NCBI GenBank assembly: GCA_000004985.1
Contig: GG739233.1
From: Naegleria gruberi
Taxonomy: Eukaryota
DNA: 2,389 nt
Reading direction: 5' to 3' (one strand)
Both the position numbers and the translations under genes were made by a program. Positions 1-2,389 of the stretch are shown piece after piece. The notes beneath the pieces were generated by a model, which did no database searches, was not told the origin of the DNA, and was given only the letters and a program-made list of their open reading frames with translations. Position 1 is the stretch's first letter. Every line of letters begins with the position of its first letter.

Positions 1-283
1 GGTTTAAAAACATAAATTTAGCAAAATTATTACTAATCATTTCTTTAATTAACTCATCATAATTATTAATAGATTTAATAGGAATATTATTTGATAATTT
101 AATAATCTTTTTAGAATGTGGTTTAAAATGATCATAGGGTCTAACTTTATAACTATCTGGTGTTCCGTTTTTACAAACAATACAAATTTCATTTGATGAC
201 TCCTTCTTATTCATTGAATCTTTTAATAAAGTTACTAGTGTTTCCTCCTGTTTTTGTTTTTTGCGTTTGGGTTGTTTAAGCAT
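1..283 (-). CDS. Partial CDS. The 5' end is complete and the ORF continues beyond window position 1. Hypothetical basic protein with a putative C2H2/BED-like zinc-finger motif. Hand translation: MLKQPKRKKQKQEETLVTLLKDSMNKKESSNEICIVCKNGTPDSYKVRPYDHFKPHSKKIIKLSNNIPIKSINNYDELIKEMISNNFAKFMFLN...
   Basis: The ATG is the reverse complement of 281-283 and is preceded by an A6 run (caaaaaaATG). There are 94 stop-free codons in sequence that is more than 75% AT; the chance expectation for that is roughly 1e-4. All three plus-strand frames have stops within the first 60 nt. Codon usage is AAA/AAT/TTA-rich, like the neighbouring gene. There is an in-frame TAA at 308-310 upstream. The ORF is absent from the supplied track only because it has no stop inside the window. 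The motif C-x2-C-x14-H-x3-H (ICIVCKNGTPDSYKVRPYDHFKPH) follows a KQPKRKKQKQ basic stretch. Confidence 0.55.
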   Translation of the reverse strand, partial: MLKQPKRKKQKQEETLVTLLKDSMNKKESSNEICIVCKNGTPDSYKVRPYDHFKPHSKKIIKLSNNIPIKSINNYDELIKEMISNNFAKFMFLN

Positions 284-332
284 TTTTTTGACCCTGCAAT
301 AAATTTTTTATTTTTATTGCAGGGTCAAAAAA
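284..332. repeat. Perfect inverted repeat (palindrome). The arms are 284-303 TTTTTTGACCCTGCAATAAA and 313-332 TTTATTGCAGGGTCAAAAAA, with a 9-nt spacer TTTTTTATT. The GC-containing core stem is GACCCTGCAAT.
   Basis: Direct reverse-complement comparison of the two arms gives 20/20 matches. The element is flanked by a T7 run and an A6 run. AATAAA is present on the plus strand at 298-303 and on the minus strand at 318-313 and 312-307. Confidence 0.9.
307..318 (-). promoter_or_regulatory. Candidate polyadenylation signal(s), AATAAAAATAAA, for the RWP-RK gene.
   Basis: On the minus strand two overlapping AATAAA motifs lie about 123-135 nt downstream of the TAA stop at 441-443. This is canonical eukaryotic poly(A) signal spacing. 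There is no transcript evidence. Confidence 0.35.
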
Positions 333-440
333 TACTTTGTTTGGTGAAACAGAAGTTGAAGTTGATTAATGTTATTGTTGAACTTGTTGATGTAAGTGAT
401 AATGATGGTATAGAAGTGATAGATTAAATGTTATACTTTA

Positions 441-1553
441 TTAAAATGTTTCTTTATAGGTTCCATCATACCACAACTTCAAAGAAATCATTCCGAATGA
501 AACTGTAACCAGTTGAGTGATTGAATTATGAGAAACACTTAATCTATAAACCATGTTTCGAACATGATCCCATCCTTCCATGAATTCCAATTGTCTATTG
601 CAATGTTCATTAAACTCATTCAACTCCTCTCCTAAAAATGAATAATCATTGTCTTCGATAACTGGAAAACTGAAATCATTTGATGATGTACTACTTGTTG
701 TTGATGTAGAATCGTTGAATATTGTTATTCCTTTCCCATCTTCAAATTCCGATTCATAATTATTATTATCTAAACTATATTGATTCAAAGTCCATCGTCC
801 ATTTCCGAATGTTGGTAAATATGGAAATTCAAACACATATCTTGAAACATTTCCTTTTGTAAAACAGCCAATAGAATCGTATCCAAGAACCTTTCTACTT
901 CTAATTGTACAATATTCTCCATACATATCAAAGTAACTGGTAAATACATTTCTGGTACACTTTGAAACTGGCATACAGAATACAACTTTCTTGAATCCAT
1001 TTGCTACTCTACCAATCATACGATCACAAATATCCTTTTCCAATCTTTTCATTTCCAAAAAATGTAAGAAATCTTGTAGTTCATATTTGTTAAAAGTGAA
1101 AATCTTATCATCATCTGTATAACCGGAATAAATTGATTCATGGTTAACATTATGTTGATTATTTTCAAGTGGAGAAGGAAGATATAATATTTTAGGTTCA
1201 ATAGAAGTGAATGGATTATTGCCCTTTTTGATTTGTTGTTTGTATATGAGAGATTTTTTAAAGATTGGAAAGTCATTTTCATCTCTAGGAAATTCTTCTT
1301 CTTCCTTCACTATGATGTTGTTGTTGTTGTTATTGGTTAGCATTTGTTGTCTAGCCTTTTGTGTTGGCCATCTAACCATAGAAAGCTCCTCTCTATGCTT
1401 CTTGAATAAAGAGCGAAGTTTGAAAGAAGATGTACCAAGTACTTTAGTAGCTTGCTCTTGGCTCAAGTGAAGAACGGACTTCAGTTCATCCAATGTTAAT
1501 TGCTTCTTCTTTGGTGAAGTTCCATCCAGTGGATTGTAGTGAATGAAGGACAT
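441..1553 (-). CDS. RWP-RK domain-containing putative transcription factor, 370 aa. The N-terminal RWP-RK domain is followed by an Asn6 linker, an acidic stretch and an unassigned C-terminal region of about 250 aa with scattered Cys/His.
   Basis: This is the ORF from the supplied track. I verified the ATG (reverse complement of 1551-1553) and the TAA (reverse complement of 441-443). There is an in-frame upstream stop at 1578-1580. Residues about 18-68, LTLDELKSVLHLSQEQATKVLGTSSFKLRSLFKKHREELSMVRWPTQKARQQ, match the RWP-RK consensus: the LTLxxL start, the hydrophobic/basic helix pattern and the invariant RWP, here RWPTQK where the canonical form is RWPxRK. The ORF is long and uninterrupted in AT-rich DNA. 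Confidence 0.85.
   Translation of the reverse strand: MSFIHYNPLDGTSPKKKQLTLDELKSVLHLSQEQATKVLGTSSFKLRSLFKKHREELSMVRWPTQKARQQMLTNNNNNNIIVKEEEEFPRDENDFPIFKKSLIYKQQIKKGNNPFTSIEPKILYLPSPLENNQHNVNHESIYSGYTDDDKIFTFNKYELQDFLHFLEMKRLEKDICDRMIGRVANGFKKVVFCMPVSKCTRNVFTSYFDMYGEYCTIRSRKVLGYDSIGCFTKGNVSRYVFEFPYLPTFGNGRWTLNQYSLDNNNYESEFEDGKGITIFNDSTSTTSSTSSNDFSFPVIEDNDYSFLGEELNEFNEHCNRQLEFMEGWDHVRNMVYRLSVSHNSITQLVTVSFGMISLKLWYDGTYKETF
1317..1334 (-). repeat. (AAC)5AAT trinucleotide microsatellite encoding an Asn6 homopolymer.
   Basis: The plus strand reads gttgttgttgttgttatt. It is in frame within the CDS and yields NNNNNN. This is typical of dictyostelid coding repeats. Confidence 0.8.
1350..1502 (-). 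other. Segment encoding the RWP-RK DNA-binding domain. R61-W62-P63 are encoded at 1373-1365.
   Basis: Nucleotide-to-codon mapping checked by hand. AGA-TGG-CCA on the minus strand corresponds to plus-strand tct/cca/tgg at 1365-1373. Confidence 0.75.
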
Positions 1554-1635
1554 TGGTGGGGATGTTGTGTGCTGTTGTTAATAGGTACGGTATTGTTTTG
1601 AACATTTTTTTTACCATGTGTTTTTTGTATGGATG

Positions 1636-1643
1636 TATTTATA
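1636..1643 (-). promoter_or_regulatory. TATA-box-like TATAAATA for the RWP-RK gene.
   Basis: The minus strand reads TATAAATA, the reverse complement of tatttata. It lies about 85-90 nt upstream of ATG 1553. The spacing is compatible with a TATA box, a TSS about 30 nt downstream and a short 5'UTR. The motif is common by chance in AT-rich DNA. Confidence 0.3.
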
Positions 1644-1763
1644 GAACAATTTTGACAACGCCAGCGAAAGTAAACACAGAGAAGCCACACATTTTTAACA
1701 CGTTGTTTACCTTGTTATCTTCCTCTGTAAATAATTTTCCATAGAGGTTTGGAATATTCTTCA

Positions 1764-1777
1764 AAAAAGTACTTTTT
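1764..1777. repeat. Perfect 14-bp palindrome AAAAAGTACTTTTT in the divergent promoter.
   Basis: The sequence is self-reverse-complementary and centred on GTAC. Confidence 0.6.
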
Positions 1778-1903
1778 CTAATCTAGTGCACTCTTTACTT
1801 TCAAAAATGAATTTAAAAGAACATTTGATTTTAAGTAATAGTAATAATTAAATATTAAATAGTCATTTGTAATTTATTATTTAAAAAAATAATTTTAAAA
1901 AAA

Positions 1904-2389
1904 ATGGACTCACACAATATCAGAGTTTTTCAATCACAAGATATTTTGTGCCCACACGATCTCGGACAGCCCTACTGCAGTGCTGCGAGTGATAGTTTAT
2001 TCTGGGTCGCATACAATGGAATTGTCAAAGGCTACTCGACACAAACAACACAGAAAGAGTTTCATTGCCTTTATGAATTTCAGCCTTTGTGGAATCAAGT
2101 GGATGCTATTCATTATTTGCCAGATATTAGGAGAGTAATTACGGTGGAAAGGAGAGTTTTATATTCATCATCTTCATCATCATTGAATGGAGGAGCAACA
2201 ATAACATCCTCTCCGATGAATAATAGTTTAAATGTTTTGGCAACATCATCAAATTTGACGGATTTTAAATCAAATCTCACGAGTGTTAATAATAATAACA
2301 GTCAGGGAACAAATGGTGGAGTGAGTGTGGAGCAATGTTGTAGAGTTTATCATTTTGATTATGATAAGAAGGAGAGAAAGACAATAATT
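1904..2389 (+). CDS. Partial CDS, open to the window end (162 codons, 5' end complete). Hypothetical protein. Hand translation: MDSHNIRVFQSQDILCPHDLGQPYCSAASDSLFWVAYNGIVKGYSTQTTQKEFHCLYEFQPLWNQVDAIHYLPDIRRVITVERRVLYSSSSSSLNGGATITSSPMNNSLNVLATSSNLTDFKSNLTSVNNNNSQGTNGGVSVEQCCRVYHFDYDKKERKTII...
   Basis: The ATG at 1904 follows an A7 run. There is an in-frame TAA upstream at 1856-1858. I checked codon by codon and found no stop in 486 nt. The other two plus-strand frames contain stops in this interval. The N-terminal roughly 80 codons are markedly GC-richer than the surroundings (for example ccacacgatctcggacagccctactgcagtgctgcgag), consistent with constrained coding sequence. Ser6 is encoded by (TCA/TCT) and Asn4 by (AAT/AAC), both typical of the genome idiom. 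The ORF is missing from the supplied track because there is no stop in the window. Confidence 0.6.
   Translation, partial: MDSHNIRVFQSQDILCPHDLGQPYCSAASDSLFWVAYNGIVKGYSTQTTQKEFHCLYEFQPLWNQVDAIHYLPDIRRVITVERRVLYSSSSSSLNGGATITSSPMNNSLNVLATSSNLTDFKSNLTSVNNNNSQGTNGGVSVEQCCRVYHFDYDKKERKTII
2165..2182 (+). repeat. TCA/TCT trinucleotide run encoding Ser6.
   Basis: The sequence is tcatcatcttcatcatca, in frame. Confidence 0.7.

What the first reader, a model, noticed from the sequence alone, without database searches (positions are those of the whole stretch)
284..332. Perfect 20-bp-arm palindrome carrying AATAAA on both strands, wedged between two tandem genes and abutting a start codon
Seen in sequence: TTTTTTGACCCTGCAATAAA-[TTTTTTATT]-TTTATTGCAGGGTCAAAAAA. 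The arms match 20/20 with no mismatch, and the element is flanked by T and A homopolymers. The GC-containing core GACCCTGCAAT is compositionally unlike the surrounding AT-rich spacer. It is the only substantial structure in the 157-bp gap between the stop of the RWP-RK gene (441) and the ATG of the next minus-strand ORF (283), and its left arm ends 1 nt from that ATG. Alternative inferences, all of them mine: (a) a dyad-symmetric binding site for a dimeric factor in the downstream gene's core promoter. (b) A 3'-end processing element for the RWP-RK transcript, since the AATAAA motifs are placed about 125-135 nt after the stop. (c) A 5'UTR stem-loop that would block scanning if the TSS lies upstream of it, which would be a translational control point. 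(d) A footprint or terminal structure of an unrecognised mobile or repetitive element. A perfect 20-bp palindrome with a GC-containing core is not expected by chance in a 2.4-kb window.
Basis: partly seen in the sequence, partly recalled or inferred. Interest (0 to 1): 0.55.

Follow-up and report, generated by a model that had tools for sequence, protein, structure and literature searches.

The report
Conserved intergenic hairpin between Naegleria genes
A perfect 49-base hairpin-forming palindrome between two same-strand genes of the amoeba Naegleria gruberi is real, and a related Naegleria in a metagenome keeps a hairpin at the same spot with a different stem sequence, so it is probably a working stem-loop at the boundary between the two genes, though its exact job is untested.

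Summary
Arms 284-303 and 313-332 pair 20/20 around a 9-nt loop. The next best perfect inverted repeat in the window has 8 bp, and 300 shuffles never exceed 12.

The window is a complete 2,389-bp scaffold of Naegleria gruberi nuclear DNA.

The main new result is a syntenic metagenome contig from a related Naegleria (L125: RWP-RK homologue, spacer, hairpin, downstream gene). The strongest hairpin of that contig lies in the same register, directly before the same A-run + ATGCT. Its stem sequence differs:
- 18 of 23 pairs are kept.
- 5 pairs are changed on both sides.
- The rest of the spacer cannot be aligned.

So the conserved feature is the pairing, not the sequence. This argues against a sequence-specific dyad binding site and against a dispersed repeat.

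On the sense strand, both loops carry AAUAAA, with a CA and an A-run 14-18 nt downstream at the 3' foot.

Best reading (about 0.4): an RNA stem-loop that forms the 3' end of the upstream transcript and stops read-through just before the next gene. Rivals are a 5'-leader or core-promoter element of the downstream gene, and a palindrome kept by DNA template switching without selection.

There are only two lineages and no transcript data. Genome-wide copy number could not be tested.

The parts
284..303 (-). Arm of the perfect palindrome. It is the 3' arm in the sense (minus-strand) RNA: UUUAUUGCAGGGUCAAAAAA.
   Evidence: 20/20 complementary to 313-332.
304..312 (-). 9-nt loop. The sense strand reads AAUAAAAAA, and its first six bases (312-307) are an unpaired AAUAAA.
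   Evidence: The related lineage L125 has a 13-nt A-rich loop with AAUAAA at L125 767-772.
313..332 (-). Other arm. It is the 5' arm in the sense RNA: UUUUUUGACCCUGCAAUAAA. It contains a second AAUAAA (318-313) that is base-paired.
333..337 (-). Possible outer extension of the stem. AAGUA pairs with UGCUU (278-282) across one bulged A.
   Evidence: Predicted in the folds. The same columns pair in L125 (GCA/UGC), with one U.G to C-G change. Support is weak because the helix is short.
278..283 (-). ATGCTT directly after the hairpin. The ATG (283-281) opens the 94-codon ORF that runs off the window. Its U and G lie in the outer stem.
   Evidence: A-run + ATGCT is conserved in L125 at 786-795.
289..290 (-). 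CA dinucleotide at the 3' foot of the stem, followed by A6-7. Candidate cleavage and poly(A) site, 18 nt after the loop AAUAAA.
   Evidence: Read from the sequence. In L125 the CA at 785-786 lies 14 nt after the hexamer. That cleavage happens here is inference only.
333..440 (-). 108-nt spacer between the stop codon and the hairpin. It is G-poor on the sense strand (4 G in 108 nt).
   Evidence: It does not align with the 205-nt spacer of L125 except for TAATAAAGTA at the stop.
437..442 (-). AAUAAA overlapping the double stop codon TAA TAA. This is a rival poly(A) signal.
   Evidence: It is conserved in L125 at 536-545.
441..1553 (-). Upstream gene. It encodes a 370-aa RWP-RK-like protein, identical to N. 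gruberi EFC35445.1 / XP_002668189.1.
1..283 (-). Downstream ORF, 94 or more codons, cut by the scaffold end. It is not in the reference proteome. Its 177-aa homologue starts at the position of Met24 (ATG 214-212).
   Evidence: The ORF is open by chance in only 0.02% of shuffles. No database hit. Homologue P0004/P0005.

Best explanation
The palindrome is a stem-loop kept for its base pairing. It most likely acts as RNA in the sense (minus-strand) transcript that reads out of the RWP-RK-like gene.

Proposed mechanism:
- RNA polymerase II runs about 108 nt past the stop codon and transcribes the 49-nt element.
- The element folds into a 20-25-bp hairpin that displays AAUAAA in its apical loop.
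- The hairpin places a CA plus an A-run at its 3' foot, 14-18 nt downstream of the hexamer. This is the normal hexamer-to-cleavage distance.
- Cleavage and polyadenylation happen there, or a double-strand-specific RNase cuts the stem. Either would end the upstream mRNA and stop read-through immediately before the start region of the next gene.

Shown:
- The palindrome and its stability.
- Its position at the boundary of two tandem genes.
- Its conservation in position and pairing, but not in sequence, in a second Naegleria lineage.
- The conserved loop hexamer and the CA/A-run geometry.

Inferred:
- That the region is transcribed from the upstream gene.
- That the hairpin forms in vivo.
- That cleavage or termination happens at it.
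For: **The structure is far beyond chance.**
- 20/20 pairs, against a maximum of 12 in 300 shuffles.
- RNA fold of -30.8 kcal/mol, z = -9.7.
- It stays the dominant helix when the whole 246-nt intergenic context is folded.

**A syntenic hairpin exists in a second lineage.**
- The organism is N. gruberi: the 370-aa protein is identical to EFC35445.1 on a 2,389-bp contig.
- Contig L125 (ENA ERZ4903137) carries the RWP-RK homologue's C-terminus (about 91% nt identity), a spacer, a hairpin at 740-794 and the homologue of the downstream ORF.
- That hairpin has 18 of 21 pairs and a 13-nt loop. It folds at -19.3 kcal/mol, z = -4.5.
- It is the best hairpin of the whole contig, and 0 of 100 shuffles reach its score.

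**Pairing is conserved, sequence is not.**
- An ungapped MAFFT alignment made without reference to structure puts both hairpins in one register.
- Of 23 pairs: 12 are invariant, 5 changed on both sides with pairing kept, 1 changed U.G to C-G, and 5 are open in L125.
- Slid-partner controls give 0-1 double changes. 7 of 500 shuffles reach 5 double changes.
- RNAalifold independently predicts the same helix with 5 compensatory pairs.
- Given the 16 arm differences observed, keeping at least 15 of 20 core pairs has P = 0.011.

**The rest of the spacer is not alignable and differs in length.**
- 108 nt against 205 nt.

**Sense-strand signals are conserved.**
- AAUAAA lies in the loop at window 312-307 and L125 767-772.
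- CA plus an A-run follows 18 and 14 nt downstream.
- The antisense loop has no such hexamer in L125.

**Absence at the other promoter.**
- The only other intergenic region in the window (1554-1903) is a divergent promoter with no gene 3' end. It has no comparable hairpin; the best there has 12 of 13 A/T pairs.
Against: - No transcript data exist, so neither the 3' end of the upstream mRNA nor the 5' end of the downstream mRNA is known.
- A second AAUAAA overlaps the stop codon and is equally conserved. It could be the real poly(A) signal, which would leave the hairpin outside the mRNA.
- The hairpin keeps a fixed 0-nt distance to the downstream A-run + ATGCT, while its distance to the upstream stop varies (108 vs 205 nt). 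That links it at least as well to the downstream gene.
- A-rich loops on an A-rich sense strand contain AAUAAA fairly easily by chance.
- Both strands fold about equally well in both lineages, so the acting strand, or DNA rather than RNA, is not resolved.
- The N. gruberi copy is perfect at the DNA level, with no G.U pair in the 20-bp core. The arms differ between lineages more (40%) than synonymous sites do (about 16-18%). Arm-to-arm copying at the DNA level would produce both features without selection on an RNA.
- Only one locus and two lineages were compared.
Confidence: 0.4

Rival explanations
1. The element belongs to the 5' side of the downstream gene. There are two versions. In the first, it is a stem-loop in the 5' leader that sequesters the AUG and controls translation. 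In the second, it is the core promoter, with the A/T-rich apex (AATAAAAATAAAAAA, about -20 to -35) acting as a TATA-like box and the A-run + ATG at the foot acting as the initiator or start context.
For: - The hairpin is anchored to A6-7 + ATGCT with a 0-nt gap in both lineages, while its distance to the upstream stop varies.
- The U and G of that ATG pair in the outer stem in both lineages.
- AAAAAATG occurs 4 times in the window against 1.0 expected (5 of 200 shuffles reach 4). Three copies lie sense-oriented at the 5' side of the three genes.
- For the RWP-RK gene, a TATAAA (minus strand, 1643-1638) sits about 30 nt upstream of such a copy.
Against: - A TATA box plus initiator needs no complementary arms, so the promoter version does not explain the compensatory changes.
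- In L125 the adjacent ATG is out of frame with the 177-aa gene and opens only 19 codons. The homologue starts at the position of Met24. The ATG may therefore not be the start codon.
- The other two gene starts in the window have the A-run + ATG but no hairpin.
- A stem of about -30 kcal/mol touching the AUG would be expected to hinder initiation rather than be a default feature (established knowledge of scanning; not tested here).
Confidence: 0.25
2. The palindrome has no function. It was created, and is kept nearly perfect, by DNA-level arm-to-arm copying during replication (short-range template switching, also called quasi-palindrome correction). It persists in both lineages by descent.
For: - The N. 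gruberi core is perfect at the DNA level, 20/20, with sharp ends and no G.U pair.
- The arms differ between lineages at 16 of 40 positions. That is more than the roughly 16-18% at synonymous or third codon positions of both flanking genes, yet many changes are mirrored on the other arm. One template-switch event copies a change to the partner arm.
- Both strands fold equally well.
- That template switching can create and maintain hairpins is my own knowledge of published work (Loytynoja and Goldman 2017; Monttinen and Loytynoja 2022). I did not retrieve these papers here.
Against: - The surrounding spacer has been scrambled by indels and is not alignable, yet the hairpin keeps its exact register next to the A-run + ATGCT.
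- Long palindromes are normally deletion-prone, so persistence suggests constraint.
- The L125 copy is imperfect (three 1x1 mismatches), so correction is not continuously perfecting it.
- The sense-strand loop hexamer and the CA geometry are conserved as well.
Confidence: 0.2
3. It is a copy, a terminal structure or a footprint of a small mobile or dispersed palindromic repeat (MITE-like or foldback element).
For: - The window is a tiny unplaced scaffold. Its RWP-RK-like gene exists in at least 4 near-identical copies on different scaffolds, so the region is repeated in the assembly.
- The element has sharp boundaries.
Against: - A syntenic copy with a diverged sequence sits at the same place in another lineage.
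- No direct repeat that could be a target-site duplication flanks it: CAT on one side, TAC on the other.
- At 49 bp it is far shorter than typical MITEs.
- There is no second copy in the window or in L125/L126.
- The two-arm pattern gives 0 hits in viral contigs.
- In JGI metagenomes it gives only 3 unrelated hits. One is bacterial-terminator-like and one is part of a local CCCCTGCAAT repeat array.
Confidence: 0.06
4. It is a dyad-symmetric DNA binding site for a dimeric, sequence-specific protein.
For: The symmetry is perfect and the GC-containing core has GGGTCA-like half-sites.
Against: - The core sequence is not conserved in the related lineage, while complementarity is.
- 20-bp arms exceed any usual half-site.
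- The centre-to-centre spacing of the GC cores is about 30 bp.
Confidence: 0.04
5. It is the precursor of a small RNA (a hairpin siRNA or miRNA-like RNA).
For: - It is a perfect 20-25-bp stem with a small loop.
- Generic sub-threshold matches to several miRNA precursor models cover exactly this stretch.
Against: - All Rfam matches are far below their gathering scores (20-30 bits against 54-111). They occur on both strands, as expected for any hairpin.
- The stem is at the lower size limit for Dicer products.
- No target or small-RNA data exist.
Confidence: 0.03

Closest known systems
'Hairpin rule' polyadenylation signals of Mimiviridae and Pithovirus (Byrne et al. 2009; Priet et al. 2015, PMC4402537)
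   Same: - Both are A/T-rich genomes with palindromes in short intergenic regions just downstream of genes.
[quoted passage not shown] That is the pattern seen between N. gruberi and L125.
   Different: - The viral rule covers viral genes transcribed in the cytoplasm by viral enzymes. A virus-encoded tandem RNase III (R343) does the cleavage, and the hairpin replaces the AAUAAA consensus.
- Here the locus is a cellular nuclear one, and the loop carries a canonical AAUAAA.
- Only one 3' end could be examined, so no 'rule' is shown.
- No poly(A) site has been mapped.
Retroviral poly(A) hairpins (HIV-1 poly(A) hairpin; HTLV-1 structure that bridges AAUAAA and the cleavage site). Recalled from my own knowledge, not retrieved here.
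   Same: An RNA stem-loop contains or positions the AAUAAA hexamer relative to the cleavage site, and its stability tunes use of the site.
   Different: - Those are viral LTR elements with conserved sequence.
- No regulatory occlusion or bridging has been shown here.
- The hexamer here is in the loop, with the cleavage candidate at the stem foot.
RNase III (Rnt1p/Pac1)-dependent fail-safe termination hairpins of yeasts. Rnt1p hairpin recognition is mentioned in PMC4402537. The termination role is from my own knowledge.
   Same: A stem-loop downstream of a gene would be cut co-transcriptionally to give an entry site for termination and to protect the next gene.
   Different: - Rnt1p substrates are defined by an AGNN tetraloop. 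The loops here are 9 and 13 nt and A-rich.
- No Naegleria enzyme has been tested.
Bacterial intrinsic (rho-independent) terminators
   Same: Both are a stable hairpin just after a gene.
   Different: The sense-strand stem is followed by an A-run, not a U-run. The terminator scan finds 0 sites in the window. The genome is eukaryotic and nuclear.
MITE or foldback transposable elements
   Same: Both are short elements made almost entirely of two inverted arms.
   Different: - It is only 49 bp.
- It has no target-site duplication.
- It is conserved at a syntenic site with a diverged sequence.
- No other copies were seen in reachable DNA.
Palindromes generated by template-switch mutation (quasi-palindrome correction). 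Recalled from my own knowledge.
   Same: The symmetry is perfect at the DNA level with sharp ends, and changes are mirrored on both arms.
   Different: That is a mutational origin, not a function. It does not by itself explain why the position is retained next to the conserved A-run + ATGCT in an otherwise scrambled spacer.

Membership tests
Mimivirus-type hairpin-rule poly(A) signal | A hairpin-forming palindrome lies in the intergenic region just downstream of the coding sequence. | tested here: met
   The palindrome is 108 nt after the stop in the window and 205 nt after it in L125.
Mimivirus-type hairpin-rule poly(A) signal | The signal is defined by structure, and its sequence is not conserved between related genomes. 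| tested here: met
   5 compensatory pairs, and 16 of 40 arm positions differ, with the register conserved. Only two lineages were compared.
Mimivirus-type hairpin-rule poly(A) signal | Transcripts are polyadenylated at or inside the hairpin. | not testable with these tools
   No RNA data are available. This needs 3'RACE, poly(A)-seq or direct RNA sequencing.
Mimivirus-type hairpin-rule poly(A) signal | The feature is genome-wide and found after most genes. | not testable with these tools
   The window contains a single gene 3' end. The N. gruberi genome could not be fetched.
Mimivirus-type hairpin-rule poly(A) signal | The context is viral: viral genes, the AAAATTGA early promoter, and a viral RNase III / poly(A) polymerase cluster. 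| tested here: not met
   - The DNA is N. gruberi nuclear DNA.
- AAAATTGA is absent from the window.
- There are no relatives of the RWP-RK gene in viral contigs, and only one weak short match (50% identity over query residues 44-73) for the plus-strand ORF.
Canonical eukaryotic AAUAAA poly(A) site | An AAUAAA hexamer lies 10-30 nt upstream of a CA cleavage site on the sense strand. | tested here: met
   In the window, the hexamer at 312-307 precedes the CA at 290-289 by 18 nt. In L125, the hexamer at 767-772 precedes the CA at 785-786 by 14 nt. This is geometry only; use of the site was not tested.
Canonical eukaryotic AAUAAA poly(A) site | It is the hexamer actually used by the upstream gene. 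| tested here: inconclusive
   A competing conserved AAUAAA overlaps the stop codon at 442-437.
Bacterial intrinsic terminator | A G+C-rich stem is followed by a U/T run. | tested here: not met
   0 terminator-like sites were found. The stem is followed by an A-run on both strands.
MITE / foldback element | A target-site duplication flanks the inverted arms. | tested here: not met
   The flanks are ...GCAT and TACT..., with no direct repeat.
MITE / foldback element | Many dispersed copies exist in the genome. | not testable with these tools
There are no extra copies in the window, L125 or L126. There are 0 hits in viral contigs and 3 unrelated hits in metagenomes.
Rfam RNA families (miRNA precursors, cis-regulatory leaders) | The score reaches the family's gathering threshold. 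| tested here: not met
   The best match is 29.5 bits against a gathering score of 90 (mir-2363). All 12 matches are sub-threshold, and the hairpin matches on both strands.
Rnt1p-type RNase III termination hairpin | An AGNN tetraloop caps the stem. | tested here: not met
   The loops are AAUAAAAAA (9 nt) and AAAAAAAAUAAAA (13 nt).
Sequence-specific dyad operator / TF site | The half-site sequence is conserved between related genomes. | tested here: not met
   The core GACCCTGC becomes GGGCTCCG, with the partner arm changed to match.

The most novel reading that the evidence does not exclude
Naegleria nuclear genes in tandem, tightly packed arrangements might end at structure-defined, sequence-free stem-loops that present AAUAAA in the loop. 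That would be a cellular counterpart of the giant-virus 'hairpin rule', used genome-wide for 3'-end formation and for insulation from the next gene. This locus would be the first recognised example. It would also raise the question whether the viral rule was borrowed from, or converged with, an amoebal host mechanism.
Probability: 0.08. Interest if true: 0.85.

Novelty: new variant of a known kind. Interest (0 to 1): 0.5.

Why it matters
Almost nothing is known about how Naegleria, a deep-branching free-living relative of the brain-eating N. fowleri, ends and starts transcripts in its compact genome. My literature searches found no report of intergenic stem-loops, poly(A) hairpins or terminator structures in this genus.

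A boundary hairpin whose pairing is conserved but whose sequence is not gives a concrete, testable handle on 3'-end formation and read-through control between tandem genes.

If it proved general, it would be a cellular parallel to the hairpin-defined polyadenylation known so far from giant viruses of amoebae. If it proved to be maintained only by template switching, it would be a clean natural example of a palindrome persisting through DNA-level arm correction.

Tried and rejected
1. **Fetching the N. gruberi genome around the gene.** The look-up of encoding contigs found nothing for the window protein, P0001 or P0003. Paralogue copies and genome-wide copy number could therefore not be examined.
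2. **A 14-mer scan of viral contigs.** It returned only chance hits, too many to be informative, and was a poor use of a scan. The two-arm pattern gave 0 hits.
3. **The two-arm pattern in JGI metagenomes.** It gave three unrelated hits: L121 looks like a bacterial terminator, L122 is a separate palindrome, and L123 is part of a local CCCCTGCAAT repeat array.
4. **A conserved RWP-RK 26-mer in genome contigs and viral contigs.** 0 hits.
5. **Protein homology for the two flanking ORFs.** No hits. Viral relatives: none for the RWP-RK gene, and one weak short match for the plus-strand ORF.
6. **Standard scans.** The Rfam, tRNA and bacterial terminator scans found nothing above threshold.
7. **Giant-virus origin of the window.** Rejected. 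The protein is identical to an N. gruberi nuclear protein. AAAATTGA is absent, and no convincing viral relatives were found.
8. **Helitron 3' end.** Rejected by eye. There is no CTRR within about 12 nt after the hairpin on either strand.
9. **Strand discrimination by folding energy.** Inconclusive. Sense and antisense fold about equally well in both lineages.
10. **Literature.** The 1988 alpha-tubulin paper that mentions AATAAA in N. gruberi is held only in truncated form. The 2010 genome paper is not held.
Full report
**1. The observation**

The window reads TTTTTTGACCCTGCAATAAA-TTTTTTATT-TTTATTGCAGGGTCAAAAAA at 284-332.
- The repeat finder gives arms 284-303 and 313-332: 20 nt, 100% complementary, 9 nt apart.
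- In my own scan the next longest perfect inverted repeat with a loop of 30 nt or less has 8 bp.
- In 300 dinucleotide-preserving shuffles of the window the longest was 7-12 bp. The analytic expectation for a repeat of 20 bp or more is about 1e-6 per window.
- As RNA the sense (minus) strand folds at -30.8 kcal/mol, z = -9.7. The plus strand folds at -29.3, z = -6.7. Single-stranded DNA folds at -19.9.
- The hairpin remains the dominant helix when the whole 246-nt intergenic context is folded.

**2. Where the window comes from**

- The 370-aa ORF at 441-1553(-) is 367/370 identical to an N. gruberi predicted protein.
- It is exactly identical to EFC35445.1 / XP_002668189.1 (NAEGRDRAFT_54907), recorded on a contig of 2,389 bp. 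The window is therefore a complete small scaffold of the Naegleria gruberi nuclear assembly.
- The RWP-RK match is borderline in my scan (24.8 bits against a cutoff of 29.3). The database also lists it for the protein.
- Near-identical copies (99%) lie on at least three other scaffolds, including ones of 695,587 and 312,004 bp. I could not read them, because the look-up of encoding contigs had none of these proteins on record.
- Both flanking ORFs are absent from the 5.8-billion-protein database. They appear to be unannotated, plausibly because the scaffold ends cut them.
- ORF 1-283(-) is nevertheless open by chance in only 0.02% of shuffles.

**3. A syntenic locus from a related lineage**

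- An exhaustive HMMER search with the 94-aa ORF fragment found one relative, P0004 (177 aa, 63% identity, query 29-91 aligned to protein 6-70).
- Its two cluster members come from ENA metagenome assemblies, and their contigs could be fetched.
- L125 (1,538 bp) carries four features in one orientation:
  - the C-terminal half of an RWP-RK homologue (about 91% nt identity to the window; same TAATAAAGTA at the stop);
  - an intergenic region;
  - a hairpin;
  - the 177-aa gene.
- Third-position or synonymous-type differences are 16-18% in both genes. So the two loci share one history and come from a moderately diverged Naegleria.

**4. The hairpin is conserved in place and pairing, not in sequence**

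- L125 740-794 folds into 18 pairs of 21 with a 13-nt loop, at -19.3 kcal/mol, z = -4.5.
- It is the top-scoring hairpin of the whole contig, and none of 100 shuffles reaches its score.
- MAFFT aligns the two hairpin regions without a single gap inside the hairpin. They share the same symmetry axis, directly in front of a conserved A-run + ATGCT.
- Counting a 23-pair structure on that alignment:
  - 12 pairs never vary;
  - 5 pairs changed on both sides and stayed paired (A-U to G-C, C-G to U-A, C-G to A-U, and two A-U to U-A);
  - 1 pair changed U.G to C-G;
  - 5 pairs are open in L125 (three 1x1 mismatches and two pairs that widen the loop).
- Sliding the partners by 1-3 columns gives 0-1 double changes. 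7 of 500 shuffles reach five.
- RNAalifold predicts the same helix on its own, with five compensatory pairs.
- Given the 16 of 40 arm positions that differ, keeping at least 15 of 20 core pairs has P = 0.011 in a simulation.
- The spacer between the stop and the hairpin is 108 nt in N. gruberi and 205 nt in L125. It cannot be aligned beyond the first 10 nt.

With only two lineages the statistics are modest. The pattern is still the one expected for an element kept for its base pairing.

**5. What this rules in and out**

Disfavoured, because the half-site sequence changes while complementarity is kept.
Disfavoured by the syntenic conservation, the lack of a target-site duplication and the absence of other copies in any reachable DNA. 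The decisive genome-wide count could not be run.
- **Other classes that do not fit:**
  - bacterial-type terminator: 0 sites, and an A-run rather than a U-run after the stem;
  - any Rfam family: all matches far below threshold;
  - tRNA-like element;
  - giant-virus DNA.

**6. Anatomy on the sense strand**

After the double stop there is a G-poor 108-nt spacer. The sequence then runs:
- U6-GACCCUGC-AAUAAA, the 5' arm;
- AAUAAAAAA, the loop;
- UUUAUU-GCAGGGUC-A6, the 3' arm;
- then AUGCUU.

The loop begins with an unpaired AAUAAA (312-307). L125 also has AAUAAA in its loop (767-772). In both, a CA followed by an A-run lies at the 3' foot, 18 and 14 nt downstream of the hexamer, which is the usual hexamer-to-cleavage spacing. 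The antisense loop of L125 has no hexamer, so 'AATAAA on both strands' is not the conserved property.

It would work much as structure-defined, sequence-free hairpins mark poly(A) sites in Mimiviridae (PMC4402537).

**7. Evidence that cuts the other way**

- Another AAUAAA overlaps the stop codon (442-437) and is conserved too.
- The hairpin is locked to the downstream A-run + ATGCT (0-nt gap in both), while its distance to the upstream stop varies.
- The U and G of that ATG pair in the outer stem in both lineages.
- AAAAAATG is over-represented: 4 copies against 1.0 expected. Three copies sit sense-oriented on the 5' side of the three genes.
- For the RWP-RK gene, a TATAAA lies about 30 nt upstream of such a copy. 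The A/T apex and the foot of the hairpin could therefore double as a TATA-like box and initiator for the downstream gene.
- Whether ATG 283 is the start codon is open:
  - the homologue starts at the position of Met24;
  - in L125 the adjacent ATG opens a 19-codon ORF, out of frame with the gene;
  - the gene's frame is open upstream to 798, and a 37-nt GT..AG segment (839-875) would join the two in frame. This is speculative.
- The perfect DNA-level symmetry in N. gruberi, and arms that diverge faster (40%) than synonymous sites (16-18%) with mirrored changes, are what arm-to-arm template switching would produce without selection. This mechanism is from my own knowledge of the literature.
- Folding energies do not favour one strand.

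**8. Verdict**

The element is a real stem-loop, conserved in position and pairing, at the boundary of two tandem Naegleria genes.

| Reading | Probability |
|---|---|
| RNA hairpin for 3'-end formation or read-through control of the upstream gene | about 0.4 |
| 5'-side element of the downstream gene (leader or promoter) | about 0.25 |
| Selectively neutral palindrome maintained by template switching | about 0.2 |
| Mobile element, dyad protein site and small-RNA precursor together | about 0.13 |

I found no published description of such elements in Naegleria. I rate it a new variant of a known kind (hairpin-associated poly(A) or termination signals). Interest is moderate, because it rests on one locus, two lineages and no transcript data.

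Noticed in passing
window 1-2389 (whole): The window is an entire 2,389-bp scaffold of the N. gruberi assembly. Its RWP-RK-like gene (EFC35445.1) has 99%-identical copies under three other accessions on other scaffolds, including ones of 695,587 bp and 312,004 bp. This means a duplicated locus, uncollapsed haplotypes, or both.
   Followed up: partly
window 1-283 (-) and 1904-2389 (+): Both flanking ORFs have no match in the 5.8-billion-protein database, even though the N. gruberi proteome is in it. They are probably unannotated genes cut by the scaffold ends. The downstream ORF has a 177-aa relative in metagenome contigs. The two differ about equally at codon positions 1, 2 and 3 (27/28/31%), so there is almost no purifying selection.
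   Followed up: partly
window 281-288 (-), 1603-1610 (-), 1899-1906 (+), 1057-1064 (+): AAAAAATG occurs 4 times against 1.0 expected (5 of 200 shuffles reach 4). Three copies are sense-oriented at or just upstream of the three gene starts. The copy at 1610-1603 lies 52 nt upstream of the RWP-RK ATG and is out of frame with it. A TATAAA (minus strand, 1643-1638) sits about 30 nt further upstream. This may be an initiator or start-context motif ([D2], 34 and 75).
   Followed up: partly
window 434-443 (-); L125 536-545: The double stop codon plus overlapping AAUAAA (TAATAAAGTA) is identical in both lineages, although the rest of the spacer is not alignable. It may be a stop-proximal poly(A) signal.
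   Followed up: partly
window 333-440: The sense strand of the spacer between the stop and the hairpin has only 4 G in 108 nt (3.7%). This is a strong strand asymmetry of unknown meaning.
   Followed up: no
L125 about 60-65 (alignment A2, columns 85-86): The RWP-RK homologue in the metagenome contig lacks 2 nt relative to N. gruberi inside the coding region. This is a frameshift, from either a pseudogene copy or an assembly error.
   Followed up: no
L125 791-921: The ATG next to the hairpin opens a 19-codon ORF. The frame of the 177-aa gene is open upstream to 798 without an ATG. A 37-nt GT..AG segment (839-875) would join the two in frame, so this is either a tiny intron or a upstream ORF. 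L126, from another sample, has the same sequence.
   Followed up: partly
L125 1538 and L126 787 (contig ends); L126 1: Two contigs from different samples end at the same base, 84 nt after the stop of the 177-aa gene. L126 begins inside the left arm of the hairpin. This hints at assembly breaks at structured or repeated DNA.
   Followed up: no
L123 4430-4600: An unrelated metagenome contig has several closely spaced small palindromes built on CCCCTGCAAT...ATTGCAGGGG, which looks like a local repeat array. It came up only because it shares the 12-mer core with the query.
   Followed up: no
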